Positions 46,730 to 55,849 of a stretch of DNA of 64,000 bases are shown piece by piece. The notes beneath the pieces were generated by a model. It was not told the origin of the DNA, made no database searches, and saw only the letters and a program-made list of their open reading frames with translations. The position numbers and the translations under genes are program-made. The stretch is taken from assembly GCA_046757925.1 (NCBI GenBank), contig JBHHZE010000002.1, forward strand, positions 11,117-75,116, read 5' to 3'. The DNA is from Gemmatimonadales bacterium (GTDB lineage: Bacteria > Gemmatimonadota > Gemmatimonadetes > Gemmatimonadales > GWC2-71-9). Within the stretch, counting starts at the first letter, position 1. Every line of letters begins with the position of its first letter.

Positions 46730-47611
46730 GTGGGAGCAGGTGCTATCCTCAGTCACGTCCCGGAACCCATACGCAGGCCCTTTGGATCGGCGGAGCTGGT
46801 CGAAACCAAGCGGCTCGAAGCTATTCCGGTGGGCGAGCCCGTTGCCGAGCCCCCGGCTGCGGGGTTCCTAGACGGTATTCAACGCTACTCGCTTGCAGGA
46901 AGACTGGGCCTGAACCCGGTTGTGCGCGCGCACGTTGCAGCGGCCGTGCTGGCTAGATCGGACGGCGAACTCCGAGTTGCGTCGGAAGATGACGAGCAGT
47001 TCGTCGCAGTTCCGCTCGATCGATTGTCCGAACGACAGCGACAGCGACTGGCAGAAGTTGGAATGCCCATTCACGACTGTGGTGCTGATGCGCGTGCCCA
47101 CCCATTTCTGGATCTGCAGCGGGCGGCTGAGCTCGTTCAGCAACGCCGCGAATTGCTGGAAGTCCGCGTGGCCCGTGAGTACGCCAGGTCGTCCCATGCC
47201 GGATGGTTGGTGGTGGACGGGTCAATAATGGGTCACGATCTGGATTGCCGCATCCTGGGGGTGATAAAGAGTCACGAAACCCAATTCTTTGAAGGTGAAG
47301 AACTCGAGACCGCCCTCACTCTTGCACCGGGCTGCCGAACGAGCGTGTTTGCTCGTATTGTGCAAGGACGGGGTAGAGTGCACAGTTGGTATCTCAGGCT
47401 TTGGCCATGGGAGGAACACGATCTCTTGTACGGATTATTGCGAATAGAGTGCATGTGCAGGGAGCCGGTGCAGGAAGCGACGGAAGTAAGCCGCTGGTTA
47501 CTTGCCGAACGTGCTCCCCTGTCAGCACCTGACGGGAGATGGGATCGCCTCATTTATCCGATCAGACAGGTGGAAGAATATCTCCGCGCGCGCACGGGCG
47601 GATGGATATGA
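46730..47611 (+). CDS. nurA: NurA-like nuclease
   Basis: Acidic motifs in NurA order: GFLDGIQ, ELLEVRVARE, WLVVDGSI, plus C-terminal RLIYPIRQVEEYL. It sits immediately upstream of herA and overlaps it. Confidence 0.6.
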   Translation: MGAGAILSHVPEPIRRPFGSAELVETKRLEAIPVGEPVAEPPAAGFLDGIQRYSLAGRLGLNPVVRAHVAAAVLARSDGELRVASEDDEQFVAVPLDRLSERQRQRLAEVGMPIHDCGADARAHPFLDLQRAAELVQQRRELLEVRVAREYARSSHAGWLVVDGSIMGHDLDCRILGVIKSHETQFFEGEELETALTLAPGCRTSVFARIVQGRGRVHSWYLRLWPWEEHDLLYGLLRIECMCREPVQEATEVSRWLLAERAPLSAPDGRWDRLIYPIRQVEEYLRARTGGWI

Positions 47612-49551
47612 TCCGTCTGGGCAGCGACGATTATGTGGGCAGGGTGGTCGCCACCGAGGCGATGCCGGCGGGGCCGCACCAGTTTTACTTTTGGACCGCG
47701 GTCGATGCGACGCTCGGTATAGGCGCCATCGTGAGAGTAGATGGTGACGATGATCGTATCGTTTTTGCGGTCGTGGTCGATGGGCGGGCATACACGGATC
47801 TCGCCACGGCGTTGCATGACGTTCTGGCTACGGATGGTGACCCGTCCGGCACCCGTCCGCCGACCAAACGTGTGGAGGTCCGGCTCTGGACGGCTGCGGT
47901 GCTACGTCAAGAACCGGAGGAGCCGGTCCAGCCTGTGCCGCTGGCGGGTGTGCGATTGGCGACGCGGGACGATGTCGCCGCGGCCTTACGGATGGATTTG
48001 TATGTTGGAACGGATCGCTCTACAGGTCTACCGATTGGTCTGTATACGGCGGGCGGAACGAGTGCGCCGATCCACTTGGACGCCGAGTTCCTGCTCGGTC
48101 CTGAATCGGCGCATCTGAACCTGTCCGGAGTGTCAGGGCTGGCCACCAAGACCAGCGCGGTACAGTTCTTCTTGTCGAGCATTTTCCAGACGTTTCCAGC
48201 TCACAAGGGAAGTATTGCGGCGGTGTGCATCAACGTTAAGGGTCCCGATCTATGTTTCCTCGACCAACCGGGAGAGCTGACCGACGGAGATCGGGCGATG
48301 TATGCCGAGCTGAAGTTGGAACCGCGGCCGTTCGACCGGGTGCGCTACTACGCTCCCTTCAAGGGAGATGGTGTAAACCTCAACACACTGCGTTCGCATC
48401 CCGATCTAGTTGGCTCGGTGCAGCCCCTCGTTTGGGGACTGCGCGAAGTGTTGGATTATCACGAAGTACTGATGAGCCGTGACGACATAGACGCCAAGTC
48501 AGACGGTCTGATCGATTTTTTGGCAGAGCGAGTCGTTGAGAAGCAATTCGACGACGAGTGGGGCAACTCGCACCGCGTGAGAACGTTCGCAGATCTGGAG
48601 CGGCTCTTTCGGGCAATCTTCGATGGACTGGAATCGCAAGGGCGGGGCGATATGTGGCGCACGCATCACATCGCCACCATACGGAAAGTGCGCAACAGGT
48701 TGCTCAACATATCTACACGATGCAAGGGGCTGGTTACCGATGATGGCACGGTAAGCGACCTCCCGTTCGGCGAGTTTGAAGACCGTTCGGTACATGTGGT
48801 GGACGTTGCCGGAATGGACCAACTCGCACAGGATCTAGCGTTCACGCGGGTAGTCTCAGAGTTGCGCGATCGTTTGGAGCGACGCGATCTGGGTGTAGAC
48901 CATGTAATCGTCTTTGTAGATGAGTTGAACAAATATGCGCCGGGCGACGGTCCCGAGACTTACGTCCGGAAGATGCTGTTGGATATTTCCGAGCGCGGTA
49001 GGTATCTGGGTCTGGTACTTTTCTCGGCACAGCAATTCCGCTCCCAGGTGCACCGCAGGGTCGTCGGCAATGCCGGCACTACGATCTACGGACGAATGGA
49101 CATGGATGAGTTGGCTACACCGGGGTATCAGGTTCTCTCTCCAGCCACCAAGATCAAGTTGGCAACTCTGCCCAAAGGGCAGCTGATGATCCGCCACCCG
49201 CATTTCACGCAACCTGTCTTCGTGCGATTCCCCCGCCCCCCGGTGCTGCCCGGTCCGGTCGGCATTCAGAGATATCCTCCGGCCAAGGACATGGAGTTTG
49301 AAGATGCGGTGGTGCTGCAGCTAGTTGGCCTGGATAGGCAACTCGAGCCGGGAAAGGTCAAAGCGGTGATAGCGGGGCGCAGGGAAGTTGATGTCAGGCG
49401 GGCCCTATTGGCGACCCGGCGGGCGCGCCCGGACGACGTCTTGGCGTTCTTTAGAGCCGCCTTGGGTCCCGCTGTGGAGAGAGAGAATGTGGGGGTGTCA
49501 CGGGTGCGAGCAGCACCTCTCAGATCGGTGGAGGATCCATATGTTTCCTGA
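47602..49551 (+). CDS. herA: HerA-like (FtsK/HerA superfamily) ATPase
   Basis: N-terminal barrel-like domain (GRVVATEAMPAGPHQFYFW...IVRVDGDDDRIVFAVVVD), P-loop-like NLSGVSGLATKTS (48127-48153) and Walker B HVIVFVDELNKYAP (DE at 48919-48924). ATG 47602 or 47608 overlaps the nurA stop. Confidence 0.72.
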   Translation: MDMIRLGSDDYVGRVVATEAMPAGPHQFYFWTAVDATLGIGAIVRVDGDDDRIVFAVVVDGRAYTDLATALHDVLATDGDPSGTRPPTKRVEVRLWTAAVLRQEPEEPVQPVPLAGVRLATRDDVAAALRMDLYVGTDRSTGLPIGLYTAGGTSAPIHLDAEFLLGPESAHLNLSGVSGLATKTSAVQFFLSSIFQTFPAHKGSIAAVCINVKGPDLCFLDQPGELTDGDRAMYAELKLEPRPFDRVRYYAPFKGDGVNLNTLRSHPDLVGSVQPLVWGLREVLDYHEVLMSRDDIDAKSDGLIDFLAERVVEKQFDDEWGNSHRVRTFADLERLFRAIFDGLESQGRGDMWRTHHIATIRKVRNRLLNISTRCKGLVTDDGTVSDLPFGEFEDRSVHVVDVAGMDQLAQDLAFTRVVSELRDRLERRDLGVDHVIVFVDELNKYAPGDGPETYVRKMLLDISERGRYLGLVLFSAQQFRSQVHRRVVGNAGTTIYGRMDMDELATPGYQVLSPATKIKLATLPKGQLMIRHPHFTQPVFVRFPRPPVLPGPVGIQRYPPAKDMEFEDAVVLQLVGLDRQLEPGKVKAVIAGRREVDVRRALLATRRARPDDVLAFFRAALGPAVERENVGVSRVRAAPLRSVEDPYVS

Positions 49552-50428
49552 GTTGCGTCGTTTGAGATCGATCTGCCTGACAGTTGGGCTGGTTTGCCCA
49601 GCGGTTGCGGCCAGTCAAGTACCTGAGGCCCTTCGCTTTAGGCCTGCGGAAAGCTCTCTGATCCACACGGTTTTGCGCTCCGAGATCGAGATGAGCGTGA
49701 TCACGCCGGATGGATCGGACACGGTGCGTGTAGTAGCGACTAGACTGGAAAGTCTGACTGAAGAGATCACCGCAGTAGCGGGCGATCGGTATTCTGTCAG
49801 ATTGACCTACGATTCGGTCCGGGCCCGTCTCCGACCTGCCGGAGGGACGTGGAAAATCCTCGATCCCGGTCCCAGGGAGGAAGCTACGGTCCGCGTCGTG
49901 CTGGGCCCCACGATGCAGGTACTGGCCTCTGCCGAGTACATCGACCAACCCAATGTAAATGTTTCCGATTCCGAAGCCCTGCGGGGAATGGCGGGCGGGT
50001 TCCAATTATCCCTGCCCGATACTCTGGTTGCGGTCGGGGGGTCGTGGACGGCGGAACTCAAGTATCCGATCACTGTCCTGGCGAGCGTGGCCGGCGATCT
50101 GGGAGTACCCAACACCGGAGAACTGATGTCGCTGGCCACGGTGACGCTCGACAGCGTGACTGCTCGCGGTACCGACCGACTGAGTTACATGACCGTGCGC
50201 GGCCGATTTCATCCCACTAGGATCGAGTCTTCGGCACAGGACGCCGGCGTTGCCGATGTGGCCGGTTCTCTGGTAGCGACGCTCATTTGGTCGTCCGGTT
50301 GGAACGCATATGTGTCGGGCGGGGTCCGCATGGTGATCAATCTGGTGACGTATAACGACACCAACGACAAAGACGTGACGTCACGGCTGCGGTTTGAGAT
50401 CGCGACGCAGTTTCAGCTTCGGGCCTAG
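49541..50428 (+). CDS. exported protein of unknown function, paralog 1 of a tandem pair
   Basis: ATG 49541 overlaps the herA 3' end by 11 nt. Signal-peptide-like MFPELRRLRSICLTVGLVCPAVAA/SQ. Beta-rich. Clearly paralogous to the next gene. Confidence 0.6.
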   Translation: MFPELRRLRSICLTVGLVCPAVAASQVPEALRFRPAESSLIHTVLRSEIEMSVITPDGSDTVRVVATRLESLTEEITAVAGDRYSVRLTYDSVRARLRPAGGTWKILDPGPREEATVRVVLGPTMQVLASAEYIDQPNVNVSDSEALRGMAGGFQLSLPDTLVAVGGSWTAELKYPITVLASVAGDLGVPNTGELMSLATVTLDSVTARGTDRLSYMTVRGRFHPTRIESSAQDAGVADVAGSLVATLIWSSGWNAYVSGGVRMVINLVTYNDTNDKDVTSRLRFEIATQFQLRA

Positions 50429-50431
50429 CTC

Positions 50432-51268
50432 TTGTTCAGGCTCGTAAAGGTCTGGCTGTTGCTGCAGATGGTTCCCGGTGTAGTCTCGGGCCAGGGCGCA
50501 CTGTTGCTTCGTCGCAGGCTCGACCTGAACGCCACGGTGCATACGGCGTTTCAAACGGTGACGCGGGTAACGTCGAGTTCGGGCCGTTACACCGAGAGCG
50601 CGGACCTGGGAGCCATGCGATGGATCGAGACCACTGATGGAGGGGGCAATGAGGTCCTTCACCTCACATATGATTCGGTACGAGTGCGAACCAGAGATCA
50701 CGGTGGCTCCTGGAGGGGCTTGGCGATCACGGACGTGGATACAGCCTGGGTTCAGATCCACATGGACGACCGCATGCGGGTAAAGCGGGTTCTCGTAGGT
50801 GGGGAATTGGCGGGGGTCACCAAGCTTCTACCTGTATTGACGGGCCTCCCGCACTTGGTGCTTCCTGAACGGGAGCTGGCGGTGGGTGACAGGTGGTTGA
50901 GTGAAACGGAGATCGCAGTCACGGGCCCGGGTATTGAAGGCGCCACCGGCCGGCCGGGCATACTTGGCCGTGCCGAGCTCAAATTGGATAGCATAGTGGC
51001 ACGCAGCAGCGACACGCTCGGGTTCATTACGGTGGTTGGGCATGTCGGACCCACGACACTCGTCAGCGTCGGTAGGGCGGGCGCCAAGGTCGTGGCGTCT
51101 GGAGCGGTCAGGGGAGGTCTAGTGTGGTCGACGGGATGGGGTTTGTTCGTGAGCGGTGCGATCCAAACTCGGCTCGAGATGACCCGAGGGACGAAGGGAG
51201 CCTCGGGTGATGGGGATGGAGATTCTCTAGTGATGGAAAAGACCACACGTTATCAAGTTCGACCATAA
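50432..51268 (+). CDS. exported protein of unknown function, paralog 2 of a tandem pair
   Basis: TTG start 3 nt after the upstream stop. Signal-like MFRLVKVWLLLQMVPGVVSG/QG. Shares LTYDSVRxRxRxxGGxW, AVGxxW, LDSxxARxxDxL and WSxGWxxxVSG blocks with paralog 1. Confidence 0.6.
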   Translation: MFRLVKVWLLLQMVPGVVSGQGALLLRRRLDLNATVHTAFQTVTRVTSSSGRYTESADLGAMRWIETTDGGGNEVLHLTYDSVRVRTRDHGGSWRGLAITDVDTAWVQIHMDDRMRVKRVLVGGELAGVTKLLPVLTGLPHLVLPERELAVGDRWLSETEIAVTGPGIEGATGRPGILGRAELKLDSIVARSSDTLGFITVVGHVGPTTLVSVGRAGAKVVASGAVRGGLVWSTGWGLFVSGAIQTRLEMTRGTKGASGDGDGDSLVMEKTTRYQVRP

Positions 51269-51272
51269 CACC

Positions 51273-52463
51273 TTGAAGCTCGCTCACCTCGCTGATATTC
51301 ATCTCGGGTTCAGGCAGTACTACCGTCAGACACCCGCGGGCATAAACCAACGAGAGGCCGATGTAGCCAACGCCTTCAGGAGAGCCATCGACGACGTCGT
51401 GTCTGCCCGGCCCGACCTGGTGCTAATCGCGGGTGATTTTTTTCATTCTGTGCGGCCCACGAACCAGGCGATCATCCACGCCTTCAGCCAACTTGGCAGA
51501 CTGAGGACAGATCTTCCCGGGGCGCCCGTGGTCATCATCGCCGGCGATCACGACACTCCCAGGTCGGTCGAGACAGGATCCATCCTCAAGCTCTTCGAAG
51601 CCATCGGTGGTGTCCATGTAGTCTCGGAGTCTGTCAAAGAAATTGCGTTCGAGGAACTCGACCTCGCCGTCACGTGCGTTCCCTTCGTGACCCATTTGAC
51701 GGGCTCTCTGCATGTTCTTGAGCCGGAACGCCAAGGTGCGAAACTGCGAGTACTGGTCACGCACGCGGAGATCGCCGGCGTTCTGCCGTCCGAACGGTCG
51801 GCGGCGGAGTATGGAGGAGTCGTGATTGAACCCGGCGCCCTGCACGCCGAGAGTTGGGACTACGTTGCCTTGGGCCACTATCACGTGGCCCATCGAGTCC
51901 GCAAGAACGCCTGGTATTCGGGCGCGTTGGAGCATGTTACACGCAATCCTTGGGGTGAACTCAAGGACGAGGCACGAGAGGGTCGGCAGGGGCAGAAGGG
52001 CTGGCTGCTGGTCACCCTGGGTGCCGAATTGCGTGTCGAATTCCAACCGATAACTATGGAGCGCCAGTACATAGACCTGGAGCCGATTCATGGCGCCGGG
52101 CTTACTGCAGGACAACTCGACCGACTGATAGCCGAACGCATAGAGGGTGTGTCGTGCGGCATCACCGGTCAGATCGTGAGGCAGGTTGTTTGGGATGTTC
52201 CGCGGGCGATTGTCCGCGATCTCGATCACGCAAGAATCCGCGACTTCAAATCGAAGGCCTTGCATTTCAATCTGGATATACGGCGACCGATGCCCGAGCG
52301 GGTGGTAGGGATTGGGACGCCAAATGGTAGACAGACGCTGGCGGAATTAGTGGCGGACTACCTGGCTCGTCGCGACATGCCGTCGAAAGCCGAGTCGAAA
52401 CGACTCGTCGGGCTGGGGACCAAGTACATGAAAGCTGTTGAGCAGGATTTTCTAGAGGAATAG
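51273..52463 (+). CDS. sbcD: Mre11/SbcD-type DNA repair exonuclease (calcineurin-like phosphoesterase)
   Basis: MKLAHLADIHLG (motif I), LIAGDFFH (II), IIAGDHD (III), LVTHAEI (IV), ALGHYH (V). TTG start 4 nt after the upstream stop. Confidence 0.88.
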   Translation: MKLAHLADIHLGFRQYYRQTPAGINQREADVANAFRRAIDDVVSARPDLVLIAGDFFHSVRPTNQAIIHAFSQLGRLRTDLPGAPVVIIAGDHDTPRSVETGSILKLFEAIGGVHVVSESVKEIAFEELDLAVTCVPFVTHLTGSLHVLEPERQGAKLRVLVTHAEIAGVLPSERSAAEYGGVVIEPGALHAESWDYVALGHYHVAHRVRKNAWYSGALEHVTRNPWGELKDEAREGRQGQKGWLLVTLGAELRVEFQPITMERQYIDLEPIHGAGLTAGQLDRLIAERIEGVSCGITGQIVRQVVWDVPRAIVRDLDHARIRDFKSKALHFNLDIRRPMPERVVGIGTPNGRQTLAELVADYLARRDMPSKAESKRLVGLGTKYMKAVEQDFLEE

Positions 52464-54878
52464 GTGCGACTCCACAGGGTAAAACTGGTCAATTTTCGGC
52501 AGCATGCTGATACCGAAATCGTGCTGGGGCCGGGGATCACAGCGGTTGTCGGACCCAACGGAGCCGGCAAGTCGACATTGCTGGAAGCCATTGCGTGGGC
52601 CTTCTACGGCAACCAAGCGGCTCGGGGCAGTCGCGACACGATTCGAAGAATCAATGCACCGGCGCGCTCGAAGGTTCAGGTGGAGGTGGACTTTGCGCTG
52701 GGTTCCCATGAATTTCACGTGGTGCGCGGTGTCTACAACGCCGAGCTGTTTCAGGACGGGCAACGCGAGGCAATAGCGAATAGCCAGCAAGAGGTCACCA
52801 GAGGAATCACTCGTGTGCTGGGGATGACACACGACGAATTCTTCAACACGTACTTCACCGGTCAGAAGGAGTTGGCCGTCATGGCCAACTTGGGTCCCGC
52901 CGACCGCGCTCGCTTTCTCTCTAGGATTCTCGGTTACGACAAACTCAAGTTGGCTCAGGATCGCTTGCGCAAGACGCGCTCTGGTTTGAAGGGAGAGCTG
53001 ACCGGGTTGGAACAGGGGTTGGGTGACAAAGAGGCACTGCTAGCTGAGTTGCAAGGAGCCAAAGAACGCACGCGCGAGATCGAGCAAAGAGTTGAAACGG
53101 CCACCGCGTCGCTTCAGCGTGCCAAGGAAGTGCTCGAAGTAGAGGGTCCTGAGTGGAGCCGCATGGTCTCGGTGCGGGAGTCGGTACTGTCTCTCGAGAG
53201 CGAAATGCGTGTTGCCGAGAGGGATGTCGAAGAGGCGCGGCGCGAATTCGAGCGGCTGGACAAGGAATTAGCAGAGGCGCTCGCTGCCAGATCGCAGCTG
53301 GAGACCATCGGGCCCGAACTCGCGCGCATCCGGCCGCTATCTGAAGAGCTGGACCGGTTGGACAATGAGGCACAGGCGTCGGGGCGGAAACGGGCTCTAT
53401 CCGGCCAGCTGCGAGAGGTTGAGAAACAGGGTCGATCCCTGTCGCAGCGTGCGGCTGAGATCGACGATGCGCCCAAGCAATTGGAAATCGCTCGCCAGGA
53501 GTTGGAGGACCTGCGTAAGCTGCTGCGTCAGGCGGAAGGAGACGTGGAGAAAGCAAACACGGCGTGGATTCGGGACAAGCAGGATGCTGAGACTAAGCGC
53601 CAATCTCTGCGCGACCGATACCGGGATTTGCAGGACCAACGAGAGCGAATTGTTGCGGCGGGCTCGGAGGGCGAGTGCCCCACGTGCGCACGACCTCTCG
53701 GACCAGAATACGGGAGCGTTCTAAAGGCGTTGGAGCGCCAACTGGAAGAGATCGAGATTGACGGCAGATACTTTGCACAGCGCGTCGAACAGCTGTCGAA
53801 GGAACCGTCGGAGCTGGCGGATAAACGTGAGATCCTGGCGCAGTCCAACCGTGACTACGAGCGTGGCGTGGAGCGTGTTACCAACTGTGAGAGTCGAGTG
53901 CGAGAGAGAGAGCAAGTGGCGTCTCAGCTGCGGGAGTTGGAAGATCGGAAGGCTCAACTGGAGCAAGAAATCAAGGATCTTCCGGAAGTGTACGATGCCG
54001 ACAGGCACGAGGCAGTGAGGGACGAGTTGCGGTCGCTCGAACCAGTCAAGACGCGCGGCGTGGAACTGCGGGTCAAGGCTGAGGCCGCCGAGACCCTGGT
54101 CCAGAGGGCGGAGGCGGCTGAGTCCGTGGTATCGGAAGCCGAGACCCGATTCGATCAGTTGCGCAAGGCCCTGGAGGACCTGGGCTACAGTGACGATCTG
54201 TTTGCACGGGCTCGGGAAAGCTACGAGCAGGCCGAGTCAGCGGTGAGGGAGGCGGAACTCCAATTGGTGGCGGTTGAAGGCGACCGTAAAGCTGCCAGGG
54301 CGGCTGTGGAGTTGGCGGAGCGGCGTGTTCGGGAACGTGAGGAGCGAGCGGCACGTGTGGACAACATCAAGGCAGACCTGCACTTGCATGATGAGCTGGA
54401 TGCTGCCTTGGGAGATCTTCGTGTGGAGTTGAACGCTACGATGCGGCCGGAAATAGCGGAGCGCGCCTCGGTTTTCTTTTCGGATCTCACTGACGGACGC
54501 TACGACGAACTCGAACTCGACGATCACTATCGCGTCCTAGTGGTTGAGAACGGCCTGCCAAAGTCGGTAATTTCTGGTGGAGAAGAAGACTTGGTAAACC
54601 TCGTCCTCAGGCTGGCTATCAGCCAGATGGTGGCGGAGCGTGCGGGTCAGCCGCTGTCGCTGTTGGTGCTCGATGAGGTGTTTGGCAGTCTCGATGAGGA
54701 TCGCAGGCATCATGTGGTCGAGCTGTTACGGCGACTTACGGGGCGATTCCCGCAGGTGGTGCTGATCACTCACATCGAGTCCATCAAGGAAGGAGTAGAC
54801 CGAGTTTTGCGTGTGGAGTTCGACCAGGACAGAGGTGCTGCGGCTGTTACCGAGAGTAGGGAAGCCTCGACTTGGTAA
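52464..54878 (+). CDS. sbcC: Rad50/SbcC-type SMC-like ATPase with zinc hook
   Basis: Walker A GPNGAGKSTLLEAI, a long coiled coil, CxxC hook CPTC at 53676-53687, signature ISGGEEDLVNLVLRLAI, Walker B LLVLDEVFGSLD, H-loop LITH. The GTG start directly abuts the sbcD stop. Confidence 0.9.
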   Translation: MRLHRVKLVNFRQHADTEIVLGPGITAVVGPNGAGKSTLLEAIAWAFYGNQAARGSRDTIRRINAPARSKVQVEVDFALGSHEFHVVRGVYNAELFQDGQREAIANSQQEVTRGITRVLGMTHDEFFNTYFTGQKELAVMANLGPADRARFLSRILGYDKLKLAQDRLRKTRSGLKGELTGLEQGLGDKEALLAELQGAKERTREIEQRVETATASLQRAKEVLEVEGPEWSRMVSVRESVLSLESEMRVAERDVEEARREFERLDKELAEALAARSQLETIGPELARIRPLSEELDRLDNEAQASGRKRALSGQLREVEKQGRSLSQRAAEIDDAPKQLEIARQELEDLRKLLRQAEGDVEKANTAWIRDKQDAETKRQSLRDRYRDLQDQRERIVAAGSEGECPTCARPLGPEYGSVLKALERQLEEIEIDGRYFAQRVEQLSKEPSELADKREILAQSNRDYERGVERVTNCESRVREREQVASQLRELEDRKAQLEQEIKDLPEVYDADRHEAVRDELRSLEPVKTRGVELRVKAEAAETLVQRAEAAESVVSEAETRFDQLRKALEDLGYSDDLFARARESYEQAESAVREAELQLVAVEGDRKAARAAVELAERRVREREERAARVDNIKADLHLHDELDAALGDLRVELNATMRPEIAERASVFFSDLTDGRYDELELDDHYRVLVVENGLPKSVISGGEEDLVNLVLRLAISQMVAERAGQPLSLLVLDEVFGSLDEDRRHHVVELLRRLTGRFPQVVLITHIESIKEGVDRVLRVEFDQDRGAAAVTESREASTW

Positions 54879-55849
54879 AGCTGTGGCATCCGGCGAAAGG
54901 CCTTCACGGTCCTCGGCGTCCGACGACCGAGGACATACCCCTGTTGAACCAGTTGTTTTCCGACTCGTTCACCGATCGCTACAGGCGGGACGGACTGGTG
55001 GGCGTACGGGTCCCGCAGCTCAATCCCGAAATCTGGCACTACGCCATCCGGGATGCGGGAGACGGTGCCATGCTTTGGTTCGACGAAAGCGACGAGTTGG
55101 TGGCGTTCAACATCGCCCATCACTCGGGAGTCGAGGGGTGGATGGGTCCGCTGGCGGTGCGTTCAGACAGGCAGGGCTTGGGTGTCGGTCGGGCGATAGT
55201 CCAGACCGCGGTCGATTGGCTTAAGGAGGCCGGAGTCAGAACCCTGGGACTCGAAACAATGCCTCGGACGGTGGAGAACATCGGTTTCTACACCAGGTTG
55301 GGGTTCGTCCCGCAGCATCTCACGATGACCATGACGTGCGATGCGGCCGGACGGAGCGTGAGAGGTCGCTTCACGCAGGTGGGTCGCTTGGCAACACCGG
55401 ACCGGGCAGACGTGCTGCGACGGTGTCGCGACAGACTGGCCCGCTCGGCGGAGGGATACGACTTTACTCGTGAGTTGGAACTCAGCCGCGAGCTGGATAT
55501 CGGCGATGCAGTGGTTGTGACACAGGAAGGGCAAGTGCAGGGTTTCGCTCTGTGGCATTCAGCTCCCCTGGCGCAGGAGCGATCGGTTGATGAGCTCAGA
55601 GTGCTCAAGCTGTTCGCGGATTCTCCAGCCACGTTTGAAAAGCTGGTGGTGGCTGCCGAGAGATGCGCGAGGCGACTGAAAATTCCGAAGGTTGCAATTC
55701 GCTGCCAGACCGCGTTCGCCGATTCCTACATGAAGTTGGTGGAGTTGGGATACCGTGTGAGATGGACGGATCTCAGAATGACTCTCAACAGGTTTCCCGA
55801 AGTAGTGCTGCCGCCCGGAGAGGTTCTTTTCTCCAACTGGGAGATATGA
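54872..55849 (+). CDS. GNAT-family N-acetyltransferase (two-lobed, about 325 aa)
   Basis: Acetyl-CoA site-like RQGLGVGRAIVQTAVDWLKEAG...FYTRLGF. The TTG start overlaps the rad50 3' end by 7 nt (start codon uncertain). Confidence 0.78.
   Translation: MVKLWHPAKGLHGPRRPTTEDIPLLNQLFSDSFTDRYRRDGLVGVRVPQLNPEIWHYAIRDAGDGAMLWFDESDELVAFNIAHHSGVEGWMGPLAVRSDRQGLGVGRAIVQTAVDWLKEAGVRTLGLETMPRTVENIGFYTRLGFVPQHLTMTMTCDAAGRSVRGRFTQVGRLATPDRADVLRRCRDRLARSAEGYDFTRELELSRELDIGDAVVVTQEGQVQGFALWHSAPLAQERSVDELRVLKLFADSPATFEKLVVAAERCARRLKIPKVAIRCQTAFADSYMKLVELGYRVRWTDLRMTLNRFPEVVLPPGEVLFSNWEI

What the first reader, a model, noticed from the sequence alone, without database searches (positions are those of the whole stretch)
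49541..51268. Tandem paralogous signal-peptide proteins of unknown function wedged between herA and mre11
The two ORFs (295 and 278 aa) share blocks in the same order:
- RLTYDSVRARLRPAGGTWK / HLTYDSVRVRTRDHGGSWR
- LVAVGGSWTAE / LAVGDRWLSE
- VTLDSVTARGTDRLSYMTVRGRF / LKLDSIVARSSDTLGFITVVGHV
- LIWSSGWNAYVSGGV / LVWSTGWGLFVSGAI

Both begin with a basic n-region, a hydrophobic core and a small-residue cleavage-like site (CPAVAA/SQ and GVVSG/QG). Similarity begins right after these segments (LRFRPAESSLIHTV / LRRRLDLNATVHTA), so the N-termini are genuinely coding.

Exported, beta-rich proteins embedded by start/stop overlap inside a cytoplasmic DNA-end-processing operon are unexpected. I recognise no family; the AVGxxW pattern is vaguely like periplasmic beta-barrel DUFs.
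Basis: seen in the sequence. Interest (0 to 1): 0.6.

Follow-up and report, generated by a model that had tools for sequence, protein, structure and literature searches.

The report
Exported DUF6263-like paralogues inside repair operon
Two duplicated genes for secreted, all-beta proteins of an uncharacterised family (distant DUF6263 relatives) sit inside the HerA-Mre11-Rad50 DNA-break-repair operon of a Gemmatimonadota bacterium; the arrangement is old, but many relatives have deleted the gene, so it is most likely a co-transcribed envelope passenger and not part of the repair machine.

Summary
ORF1 (49541-50428, 295 aa) and ORF2 (50432-51268, 278 aa) are real full-length paralogues (BLASTP E 7e-23, 28% identity). 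Both carry a Sec-type signal peptide with a cleavage site just before a nearly invariant Gln.

The organism is a Gemmatimonadota MAG. The family has about 230 clusters at 50% identity. It scores below Pfam thresholds but is a remote branch of DUF6263 (PF19777):
- Bridging members and the same-position genes of a sister family pass the Pfam cut-off.
- hhalign against canonical DUF6263 gives 84% probability over the full length.

AlphaFold models (pLDDT 85 and 81) show a meander of long beta strands. The best structural matches are only weak, to the soluble N-terminal barrel of large lipid-transfer proteins (TM 0.35-0.48), not to porins (TM about 0.2).

In two Gemmatimonadales families and one further genome of the class the gene sits directly upstream of mre11 in 0, 1 or 2 copies. 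About 60% of same-family genomes lack it, 11 of 20 checked have herA abutting mre11, and one keeps a remnant. DUF6263 genes elsewhere in the phylum lie in unrelated contexts.

Best reading: an old, dispensable, co-transcribed periplasmic passenger, possibly an acidic/basic heterodimer. Earlier reports of this scan reached the same conclusion on other genomes.

The parts
49541..50428 (+). X1: upstream paralogue, 295 aa, an acidic (mature pI 5.1) exported all-beta protein and remote DUF6263 relative
   Evidence: ORF and translation. Orthologues at 61-63% identity with full coverage. AlphaFold pLDDT 84.7. Falls in the upstream-copy group of the tree. pI.
49541..49615 (+). Predicted Sec signal peptide of X1 (residues 1-25, MFPELRRLRSICLTVGLVCPAVAAS, cleavage before Q26)
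   Evidence: Q26 is invariant in 15 sequences and present in at least 90% of 116. Family-wide hydrophobic core plus small-x-small|Q motif. No dedicated signal-peptide predictor was available.
50432..51268 (+). X2: downstream paralogue, 278 aa, a basic (mature pI 9.4) exported all-beta protein
   Evidence: ORF and translation. Orthologues at 64-65% identity. AlphaFold pLDDT 81.3. Falls in the downstream-copy clade with 100/100 support.
50432..50491 (+). Predicted Sec signal peptide of X2 (residues 1-20, MFRLVKVWLLLQMVPGVVSG, cleavage before Q21). It requires the TTG start.
   Evidence: The orthologue P0011 begins MSRYVIVGLCLLGLPGSLRG|Q. The gene caller's later ATG removes the signal peptide.
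47539..49551 (+). herA-like ATPase gene. Its stop overlaps the X1 start by 11 nt.
   Evidence: PDB 7f6d HerA, E 2e-38. Junction sequence.
46730..47611 (+). ORF in the nurA position upstream of herA. Its identity was not confirmed here.
   Evidence: No Pfam, NCBIfam or PDB sequence match. A homologous ORF precedes herA in relatives.
51273..52463 (+). mre11/sbcD, starting 4 nt after the X2 stop
   Evidence: Metallophos plus the NCBIfam Mre11 models.
52464..54878 (+). rad50
   Evidence: NCBIfam Rad50 PRK03918, E 6e-65.
54872..55849 (+). GNAT acetyltransferase gene overlapping the rad50 stop; the last gene of the block
   Evidence: Pfam Acetyltransf_1. Present after rad50 in nearly all loci long enough to show it.

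Best explanation
X1 and X2 are genuine genes for Sec-exported, soluble, all-beta proteins of about 260 mature residues. They belong to a Gemmatimonadota branch of the uncharacterised DUF6263 superfamily.

Proposed history:
- A DUF6263 gene entered the slot between herA and mre11 in an ancestor of at least two Gemmatimonadales families.
- It duplicated once in tandem.
- It has since been inherited vertically, diverging about twice as fast as its neighbours.
- It was deleted many times.

In this genome both copies are co-transcribed, and probably translationally coupled, with nurA-like/herA/mre11/rad50/GNAT. After export they most likely form an acidic (X1) plus basic (X2) heterodimer in the periplasm. 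There they would have an envelope role, perhaps binding a hydrophobic or lipid ligand in a barrel-like cavity, and this role is not needed for DNA end resection.

Shown here: gene reality, paralogy, a signal-peptide-like N-terminus, remote DUF6263 homology, position, and repeated absence.

Inferred: actual export, co-transcription, heterodimer formation, ligand binding, and independence from repair.
For: **Paralogy and family**
- Paralogy. Family of about 230 clusters, all 260-300 aa and single-domain.
- Signal peptides in 120 of 123 representatives; a few members have a Cys lipobox instead, which fits soluble, anchored proteins.

**Link to DUF6263**
- P0165 scores 28.1 bits against a cut-off of 26.7. 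P0166 has E 3e-5.
- PF19777 hits the gene directly upstream of mre11 in about 25 genomes (coordinates compared).
- hhalign gives 84% probability and E 7e-6 over 257 columns.

**Fold**
- Two independent models (pLDDT 84.7 and 81.3) show 11-13 strands, mostly long and joined by short loops.
- The best TM-scores in both searches are to soluble barrels of large lipid-transfer proteins, 0.35-0.48.

**Position**
- The gene is next to mre11 in 33 of 34 matching genomes of the window's own family, 24 of 25 in the sister family, and the single genome of a third family.

**Dispensability**
- 61 of 95 same-family genomes have no match although 94 of 95 have mre11.
- herA abuts mre11 in 11 of 20 checked genomes.
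- A 62-aa N-terminal remnant lies in the 195-nt herA-mre11 spacer of one genome.

**Wider homologues**
- DUF6263 genes elsewhere in the phylum lie by an S15 peptidase and radC, after MacB/FtsX permease genes, or by a gamma-glutamyltranspeptidase-like gene (named from its sequence, not scanned). None lies by herA or mre11.

**Duplication and charge**
- One old duplication: a 100/100 split puts all 15 downstream copies on one side.
- The downstream copy is more basic in 14 of 15 pairs, median pI 9.6 against 5.4.

**Single transcription unit and native composition**
- GC3 equals that of the neighbours, and there is no + strand terminator or promoter match inside the block.
Against: - The gene has kept exactly this slot over deep divergence. 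It stays upstream of mre11 even where herA/nurA are gone (L006, L020, L021). That would also fit a real functional tie to Mre11-Rad50.
- The whole 15-kb neighbourhood is syntenic, so position alone cannot settle the question either way.
- The window's own proteins do not reach any Pfam threshold.
- Structural matches all have TM below 0.5, so the ligand-binding idea is weak.
- No complex prediction was possible, so the heterodimer rests only on tandem co-retention and charge.
Confidence: 0.65

Rival explanations
1. X1/X2 are functional accessories of the HerA-NurA-Mre11-Rad50 system. They would be an envelope-side component that links DNA-end processing to DNA uptake or export (HerA is an FtsK-like translocase) or to sensing of envelope damage.
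For: - Tight packing with start/stop overlap.
- The slot directly upstream of mre11 is kept in three taxonomic families, and also where herA is lost.
- The duplicated pair is retained in the same order in 15 loci.
Against: - The protein is exported, so it is separated from the cytoplasmic enzymes.
- It is absent from about 60% of same-family genomes that keep the complete enzyme set, with herA abutting mre11, and one genome keeps only a remnant.
- Wider homologues are never near repair genes.
- There is no membrane-spanning partner in the operon and no DNA-binding domain hit.
Confidence: 0.1
2. X1/X2 are integral outer-membrane beta-barrels (small porin or OpcA-like channels), not soluble periplasmic proteins.
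For: - The lowest Foldseek E-values are to porins, OmpG, FapF, BrkA and OpcA.
- The fold is an all-beta meander behind a signal peptide.
Against: - TM-scores to porins are only about 0.2, and 0.3-0.4 to OpcA.
- Loops are short on both sides of very long strands.
- The C-terminus ends in V-R-P or L-R-A, not in an aromatic beta-signal residue.
- Some family members are lipoproteins.
- Mature proteins have a GRAVY near 0 and many Arg residues.
Confidence: 0.12
3. The ORFs are not real genes: chance open frames in GC-rich spacer DNA, or decaying pseudogenes.
For: - No Pfam or NCBIfam hit for the window's proteins.
- X2 uses a TTG start without a clear Shine-Dalgarno sequence.
Against: - Hundreds of homologues share invariant motifs (D-S, P, D-S, W-S-x-G-W) across 116 sequences.
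- Two confident AlphaFold models.
- Codon-position GC matches the neighbours.
- The frames are intact, with no internal stops.
Confidence: 0.01

Closest known systems
Pfam PF19777 (DUF6263), an uncharacterised family of bacterial exported proteins and lipoproteins
   Same: - Similar length, an N-terminal signal peptide or lipobox, and all-beta content.
- Shared motifs L-x-L-(R/K)-x-x-P/x-x-G near the mature N-terminus, Y-D-S, P-x-x-P-V-x-x-G-x-x-W and T-G-W.
- Full-length hhalign match at 84% probability.
- Bridging members and same-slot genes of the sister family pass the Pfam cut-off.
   Different: - The window's two proteins score below any reportable Pfam E-value.
- Pfam matches to the Gemmatimonadales genes cover only model positions of about 100-196.
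- Only this branch sits inside a herA-mre11-rad50 operon; canonical and other Gemmatimonadota DUF6263 genes do not.
- No function is known for DUF6263, and the paper library holds no paper naming it.
N-terminal beta-barrel domain of large lipid-transfer proteins (lipovitellin 1lsh, vitellogenin 9ens, ApoB100 9bd8, MTP 6i7s) and mycobacterial LmcA (7n3v)
   Same: These are the best TM-scores for both models: 0.35-0.48 normalised to the query, Foldseek probability 1.00. They are soluble barrels of long antiparallel strands that bind lipids.
   Different: - TM is below 0.5, rmsd is about 8-9 A, and sequence identity is 6-11%.
- There is no sequence homology.
- This is a resemblance of architecture only, and lipid binding was not tested.
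Archaeal herA-mre11-rad50-nurA operon (Sulfolobus, Pyrococcus; e.g. PMC2288612, PMC3326311) and the bacterial NurA-HerA pair of Deinococcus (PMC9960219)
   Same: The flanking genes are the same enzyme kit. HerA matches D. radiodurans HerA, and Mre11/Rad50 match the archaeal NCBIfam models best.
   Different: As far as I know, none of the described operons contains an exported protein gene in its middle. The gene order here is nurA-like, herA, X, X, mre11, rad50, GNAT.

Membership tests
Pfam DUF6263 (PF19777) | Whole-protein score at or above the gathering cut-off (26.7 bits) | tested here: not met
   - X1 and X2 have no PF19777 hit at E<=1, and the six-frame search of the own genome has none at E<=10.
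- The cut-off is met by family member P0165 (28.1 bits) and by the same-slot genes of about 20 sister-family genomes.
Pfam DUF6263 (PF19777) | Homology detectable by profile-profile comparison over the whole domain | tested here: met
   hhalign of A1 against five canonical Gemmatimonadota DUF6263 proteins: 84.4% probability, E 7e-6, 257 aligned columns covering 10-285 against 10-314. The support is moderate, not overwhelming.
Pfam DUF6263 (PF19777) | Exported: N-terminal signal peptide or lipobox | tested here: met
   120 of 123 representatives have a hydrophobic N-terminus and 108 have small-x-small|Q. Canonical members also begin with signal peptides. This came from my own heuristic, not from SignalP.
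Outer-membrane beta-barrel (porin, OmpG, OpcA-like) | C-terminal beta-signal ending in an aromatic residue, and a closed barrel superposable on known outer-membrane proteins | tested here: not met
   The C-termini are ...FQLRA and ...YQVRP, and the family consensus is R-x-Q-V-R-P. TM to porins is about 0.2 and to OpcA 0.32-0.40.
Lipid-binding barrel of large lipid-transfer proteins / LmcA-like carriers | Same fold (TM at least 0.5) with a hydrophobic cavity | tested here: inconclusive
   The best TM is 0.46-0.48 (lipovitellin, vitellogenin) and 0.35 for LmcA.
LolA/LolB/LppX-like lipoprotein carriers | Structural match to the unclosed 11-strand barrel with a helical lid | tested here: not met
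   No LolA, LolB, LppX, LprG or RseB entry is among the 50 listed PDB matches of either model.
Core subunit of the HerA-NurA-Mre11-Rad50 end-resection system | Present wherever the enzyme set is present, and cytoplasmic | tested here: not met
   mre11 is found in 94 of 95 same-family genomes but X in only 34 of 95. herA abuts mre11 in 11 of 20 checked genomes. The protein carries an export signal.

The most novel reading that the evidence does not exclude
The X1/X2 pair is a periplasmic heterodimer that works with the operon's FtsK-like HerA translocase and the Mre11-Rad50 nuclease. It could be the envelope-side part of a DNA import, export or damage-response route peculiar to Gemmatimonadales. 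Under this reading its slot next to mre11 has been held for so long because stoichiometric co-expression matters.
Probability: 0.07. Interest if true: 0.75.

Novelty: new member of a known kind. Interest (0 to 1): 0.3.

Why it matters
- It gives a name (a remote DUF6263 branch) and a corrected gene model to two hypothetical proteins. The true starts restore signal peptides that automatic calls cut off.
- It shows that a gene embedded with start/stop overlap in a conserved DNA-repair operon need not belong to that machine. This is a caution for guilt-by-association annotation.
- It gives DUF6263, a family with no literature, some first descriptors: export, a barrel-like all-beta model with weak likeness to lipid-transfer barrels, tandem acidic/basic pairs, and occasional lipoprotein forms.
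- If the minority reading were true, it would reveal an envelope partner of an archaeal-type end-resection system in bacteria.

Tried and rejected
- **Family scans.** Pfam, NCBIfam and PADLOC scans of X1/X2 found nothing.
- **PDB sequence searches.** Searches with profiles A1 and A3 gave only chance-level hits.
- **Viral structures.** Foldseek against the viral structure library found nothing below E 1e-3.
- **Internal duplication.** I considered it because TYDSVRAR and LDSVTAR recur. hhalign of the N half against the C half gives 8% probability and aligns only 11 residues, so I rejected it.
- **Giant repeat protein.** A 5043-aa protein (P0162) hit by the family profile is a repeat protein that matches only around the L-x-x-G-E-x-W motif. 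I treated it as spurious.
- **Defence system.** PADLOC gives Rad50 against mad3/LmuB and HerA against mad8. These are generic SMC and HerA similarities. The block is single-copy, syntenic and nearly universal in the order, so I did not read it as a defence island.
- **Recent horizontal transfer of X.** Rejected because GC3 is identical to the neighbours and the tree fits vertical inheritance.
- **Locus search with A1.** The search for related loci with alignment A1 failed for lack of a conserved stretch; A2 worked.
- **nurA-like ORF.** It has no PDB sequence match.
Full report
**1. Observation**

The window has a run of + strand genes with almost no spacers:
- an ORF in the nurA position (46730-47611)
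- herA (47539-49551)
- ORF1 (49541-50428)
- ORF2 (50432-51268)
- mre11 (51273-52463)
- rad50 (52464-54878)
- a GNAT gene (54872-55849)

HerA matches the solved Deinococcus radiodurans HerA (7f6d, E 2e-38). Mre11 and Rad50 match the archaeal NCBIfam models best.

ORF1 starts at an ATG preceded by GGAGG and overlaps the herA stop by 11 nt. ORF2 starts at a TTG 3 nt after the ORF1 stop. The mre11 TTG follows 4 nt after the ORF2 stop.

Codon-position GC is the same as in the flanking genes, with GC3 at 0.67. The consensus scan finds no + strand promoter or terminator match inside the block.

**2. Export signal**

Orthologues align from the first residue. Q26 of ORF1, which is Q21 of ORF2, is invariant in 15 sequences and present in at least 90% of 116.

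Among 123 full-length representatives of the family:
- 120 have a hydrophobic 10-residue window (Kyte-Doolittle score at least 1.6) near the N-terminus.
- 108 have a small-x-small motif immediately before that Gln (AAAQ, VAAQ, LSAQ and so on).
- A few have a Cys lipobox instead.

This is the pattern of a signal-peptidase-I site, AAS|Q in ORF1 and VSG|Q in ORF2. It is my own heuristic, because no dedicated predictor was available. The database gene calls for both proteins (245 and 266 aa) start too late and remove the signal peptides.

**3. Organism and family**

Related loci carry titles of Gemmatimonadota, Gemmatimonadales and Gemmatimonadaceae MAGs.

A word-indexed search found only 5 and 12 homologues. 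A full HMMER pass over 1.84 billion representatives found 230 clusters, 112 of them below E 1e-30. Apart from shorter pieces and one spurious giant repeat protein, the 150 listed are single-domain proteins of about 260-340 aa.

The window's proteins have no Pfam, NCBIfam, PADLOC or PDB sequence match.

**4. The family is a remote branch of DUF6263**

- A distant paralogue elsewhere in a relative's genome gave a sub-threshold PF19777 hit.
- Scanning 116 family members one by one gave 5 DUF6263 hits, the best at E 1.8e-6. This member, P0165, scores 28.1 bits against a cut-off of 26.7.
- A six-frame search of 201 Gemmatimonadota genomes with PF19777 hit, mostly above the cut-off, the gene directly upstream of mre11 in about 25 genomes. 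Examples are G103, G170, G156, G050, G088, G040, G110, G071, G076 and G047. I compared the coordinates with the Mre11 table.
- Profile-profile comparison of the family with five canonical DUF6263 proteins from another class of the phylum gives 84% probability and E 7e-6 over 257 columns. The P-V-x-x-G-x-x-W and T-G-W blocks are aligned.

The own genome has no direct PF19777 match. I therefore file X1 and X2 as remote relatives, not as threshold members. The paper library holds no paper that mentions DUF6263.

**5. Structure**

AlphaFold2 models of X1 (15-sequence alignment, pLDDT 84.7, pTM 0.81) and X2 (8 sequences, pLDDT 81.3, pTM 0.78) agree. After the signal peptide come three long strands of 14-20 residues. 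A middle part follows with short strands and one or more short helices. It ends with a strand of about nine residues followed by five long strands. Nearly all loops are short.

In both Foldseek searches of the PDB the lowest E-values go to porins and other outer-membrane barrels, but with TM of only about 0.2. The best superpositions are to soluble barrels:
- vitellogenin, 0.48
- lipovitellin, 0.46-0.47
- ApoB100 barrel, 0.35-0.45
- MTP, 0.40-0.41
- LmcA, 0.35

All are below 0.5, so this is a likeness of architecture and not a fold assignment.

Several points argue against an integral outer-membrane barrel:
- The C-terminal residue is not aromatic.
- Some family members are lipoproteins.
- Overall hydropathy is near zero and the proteins are rich in Arg.

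**6. Genomic distribution**

In every locus recovered with the family the gene lies directly upstream of mre11-rad50-GNAT, and after herA when herA is present. The copy number is one or two. In L006/L008, L020 and L021 herA and the nurA-like ORF are absent but X remains upstream of mre11.

Across 201 sampled genomes of the phylum, a close Mre11 homologue (E at most 1e-30) is found in these fractions of the anonymised taxonomic families f1-f8 (f1 is the window's own family):

| Family | Mre11 | Broad family profile |
|---|---|---|
| f1 | 94/95 | 34/95 |
| f2 | 38/38 | 25/38 |
| f3 | 3/3 | 3/3 |
| f5 | 1/1 | 1/1 |
| f6 | 0/11 | 10/11 |
| f7 | 2/24 | 7/24 |

By comparing coordinates, the match is adjacent to mre11 in 33 of 34 f1 genomes. 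One of these is split across two contig ends. It is also adjacent in 24 of 25 f2 genomes and in the single f5 genome. It is not adjacent in f3, f6, f7 or f9.

I fetched the mre11 upstream region from 20 genomes that had no match:
- 11 have herA abutting mre11, with spacers of 16-157 nt.
- 3 have very divergent X copies.
- The other 6 have unrelated content or none. In three of them this includes opposite-strand genes.

In G119 the 195-nt herA-mre11 spacer still encodes a 62-residue frame that matches positions 8-52 of the family profile, which is a deletion remnant. In G001 the second copy is broken across frames.

DUF6263 genes of f6 and f7 lie in other places:
- as a tandem pair between an S15 peptidase gene and a divergently transcribed radC
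- directly after MacB/FtsX-type permease genes
- between a gamma-glutamyltranspeptidase-like gene (named from its sequence, not scanned) and a gene for a 1684-aa protein

**7. Duplication**

A maximum-likelihood tree of 48 proteins has one 100/100 split. All 15 downstream copies plus 5 single copies fall on one side. All 15 upstream copies plus 13 single copies fall on the other. I left out three exact duplicates (L043, and both copies from L030). The tree therefore supports one old tandem duplication with the gene order kept, followed by loss of one or both copies.

Upstream copies are acidic (median mature pI 5.4) and downstream copies basic (9.6). The downstream copy is the more basic in 14 of 15 pairs. 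These lineages are related, so this is a pattern and not a statistical test. It suggests a heterodimer.

Between the window and its closest relative (L003) the amino-acid identities are:

| Protein | Identity |
|---|---|
| HerA | 85% |
| Rad50 | 76% |
| GNAT | 76% |
| Mre11 | 75% |
| X2 | 64% |
| X1 | 61% |

X thus evolves roughly twice as fast as its neighbours.

**8. Interpretation**

The simplest account is this. An exported DUF6263 protein gene was inserted between herA and mre11 long ago. It is transcribed with the repair genes. It has an envelope role of its own, and it is dispensable for the repair enzymes because many lineages have removed it cleanly.

The alternative is that it is an envelope partner of the HerA/Mre11/Rad50 system. 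The very stable position does not exclude this. However, the protein is exported, it has been lost often, and wider homologues are not linked to repair genes, all of which argue against it. I put this alternative at about 0.07-0.1.

**9. Limits**

- There was no dedicated signal-peptide predictor, no multimer prediction, and no access to model coordinates.
- Genome samples are related lineages, and absences mean 'not found in those searched'.

**10. Earlier scan reports**

After I had reached the DUF6263 and passenger reading, a look-up showed follow-up reports on other Gemmatimonadota genomes with the same conclusions. The scan has therefore found this before on other DNA.

Noticed in passing
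window 48127-48153 (within herA): The HerA-like ATPase has an unusual P-loop region...SGVSGLATKTS..., instead of GxxxxGK[ST]. The Walker B region VFVDELNKYAP looks intact. It has no Pfam HerA or AAA hit at E<=0.01, although it matches PDB 7f6d HerA.
   Followed up: no
window 46730-47611: The ORF in the nurA position has no Pfam, NCBIfam, PADLOC or PDB sequence match. A homologous ORF precedes herA in many relatives. Its identity as NurA is not confirmed here.
   Followed up: partly
window 49541-49690 and 50432-50470: Database gene calls for both proteins start at later ATGs (245 and 266 aa) and so lose the signal peptides. This is an annotation error that probably recurs across the family.
   Followed up: yes
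L046 (G171), L052 (G045), L050 (G107): region between herA and mre11: In some relatives the herA-mre11 junction holds 3.5 kb or more of unrelated genes, including opposite-strand ORFs of 531-618 aa. The slot is therefore a recurrent site of gene gain and loss.
   Followed up: partly
L084 3773-3958 (G119, herA-mre11 spacer): A 62-residue frame matches family profile positions 8-52 (E 1e-6). It looks like the N-terminal remnant of a deleted X gene.
   Followed up: yes
L079 3354-8573 (G122): A bona fide DUF6263 gene (49.7 bits) starts 1 nt after the stop of the last of three MacB/FtsX-type permease genes. This is the only context seen that hints at an envelope transport link.
   Followed up: partly
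L076 8053-9712 (G058) and the same place in L077 and L078: Genomes of a family that showed no Mre11 match carry a tandem DUF6263 pair, one copy with a lipobox (LASC). It lies between an S15 peptidase gene and a divergently transcribed radC.
   Followed up: partly
L066 4002-4790 (G089, another contig): A second, distant family paralogue lies away from the repair operon, between an M20 peptidase gene and a TPR protein gene. It gave the first weak DUF6263 hit.
   Followed up: yes
window 54872-55849 and loci: A 325-aa GNAT gene overlaps the rad50 stop and follows rad50 in nearly all loci long enough to show it. It is more constant than X.
   Followed up: no
window 52464-54878: Rad50 scores E 2e-37 against PADLOC mad3 and E 1.5e-30 against LmuB. 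I read these as generic SMC/Rad50 similarity, because the gene is single-copy and nearly universal in the order.
   Followed up: partly
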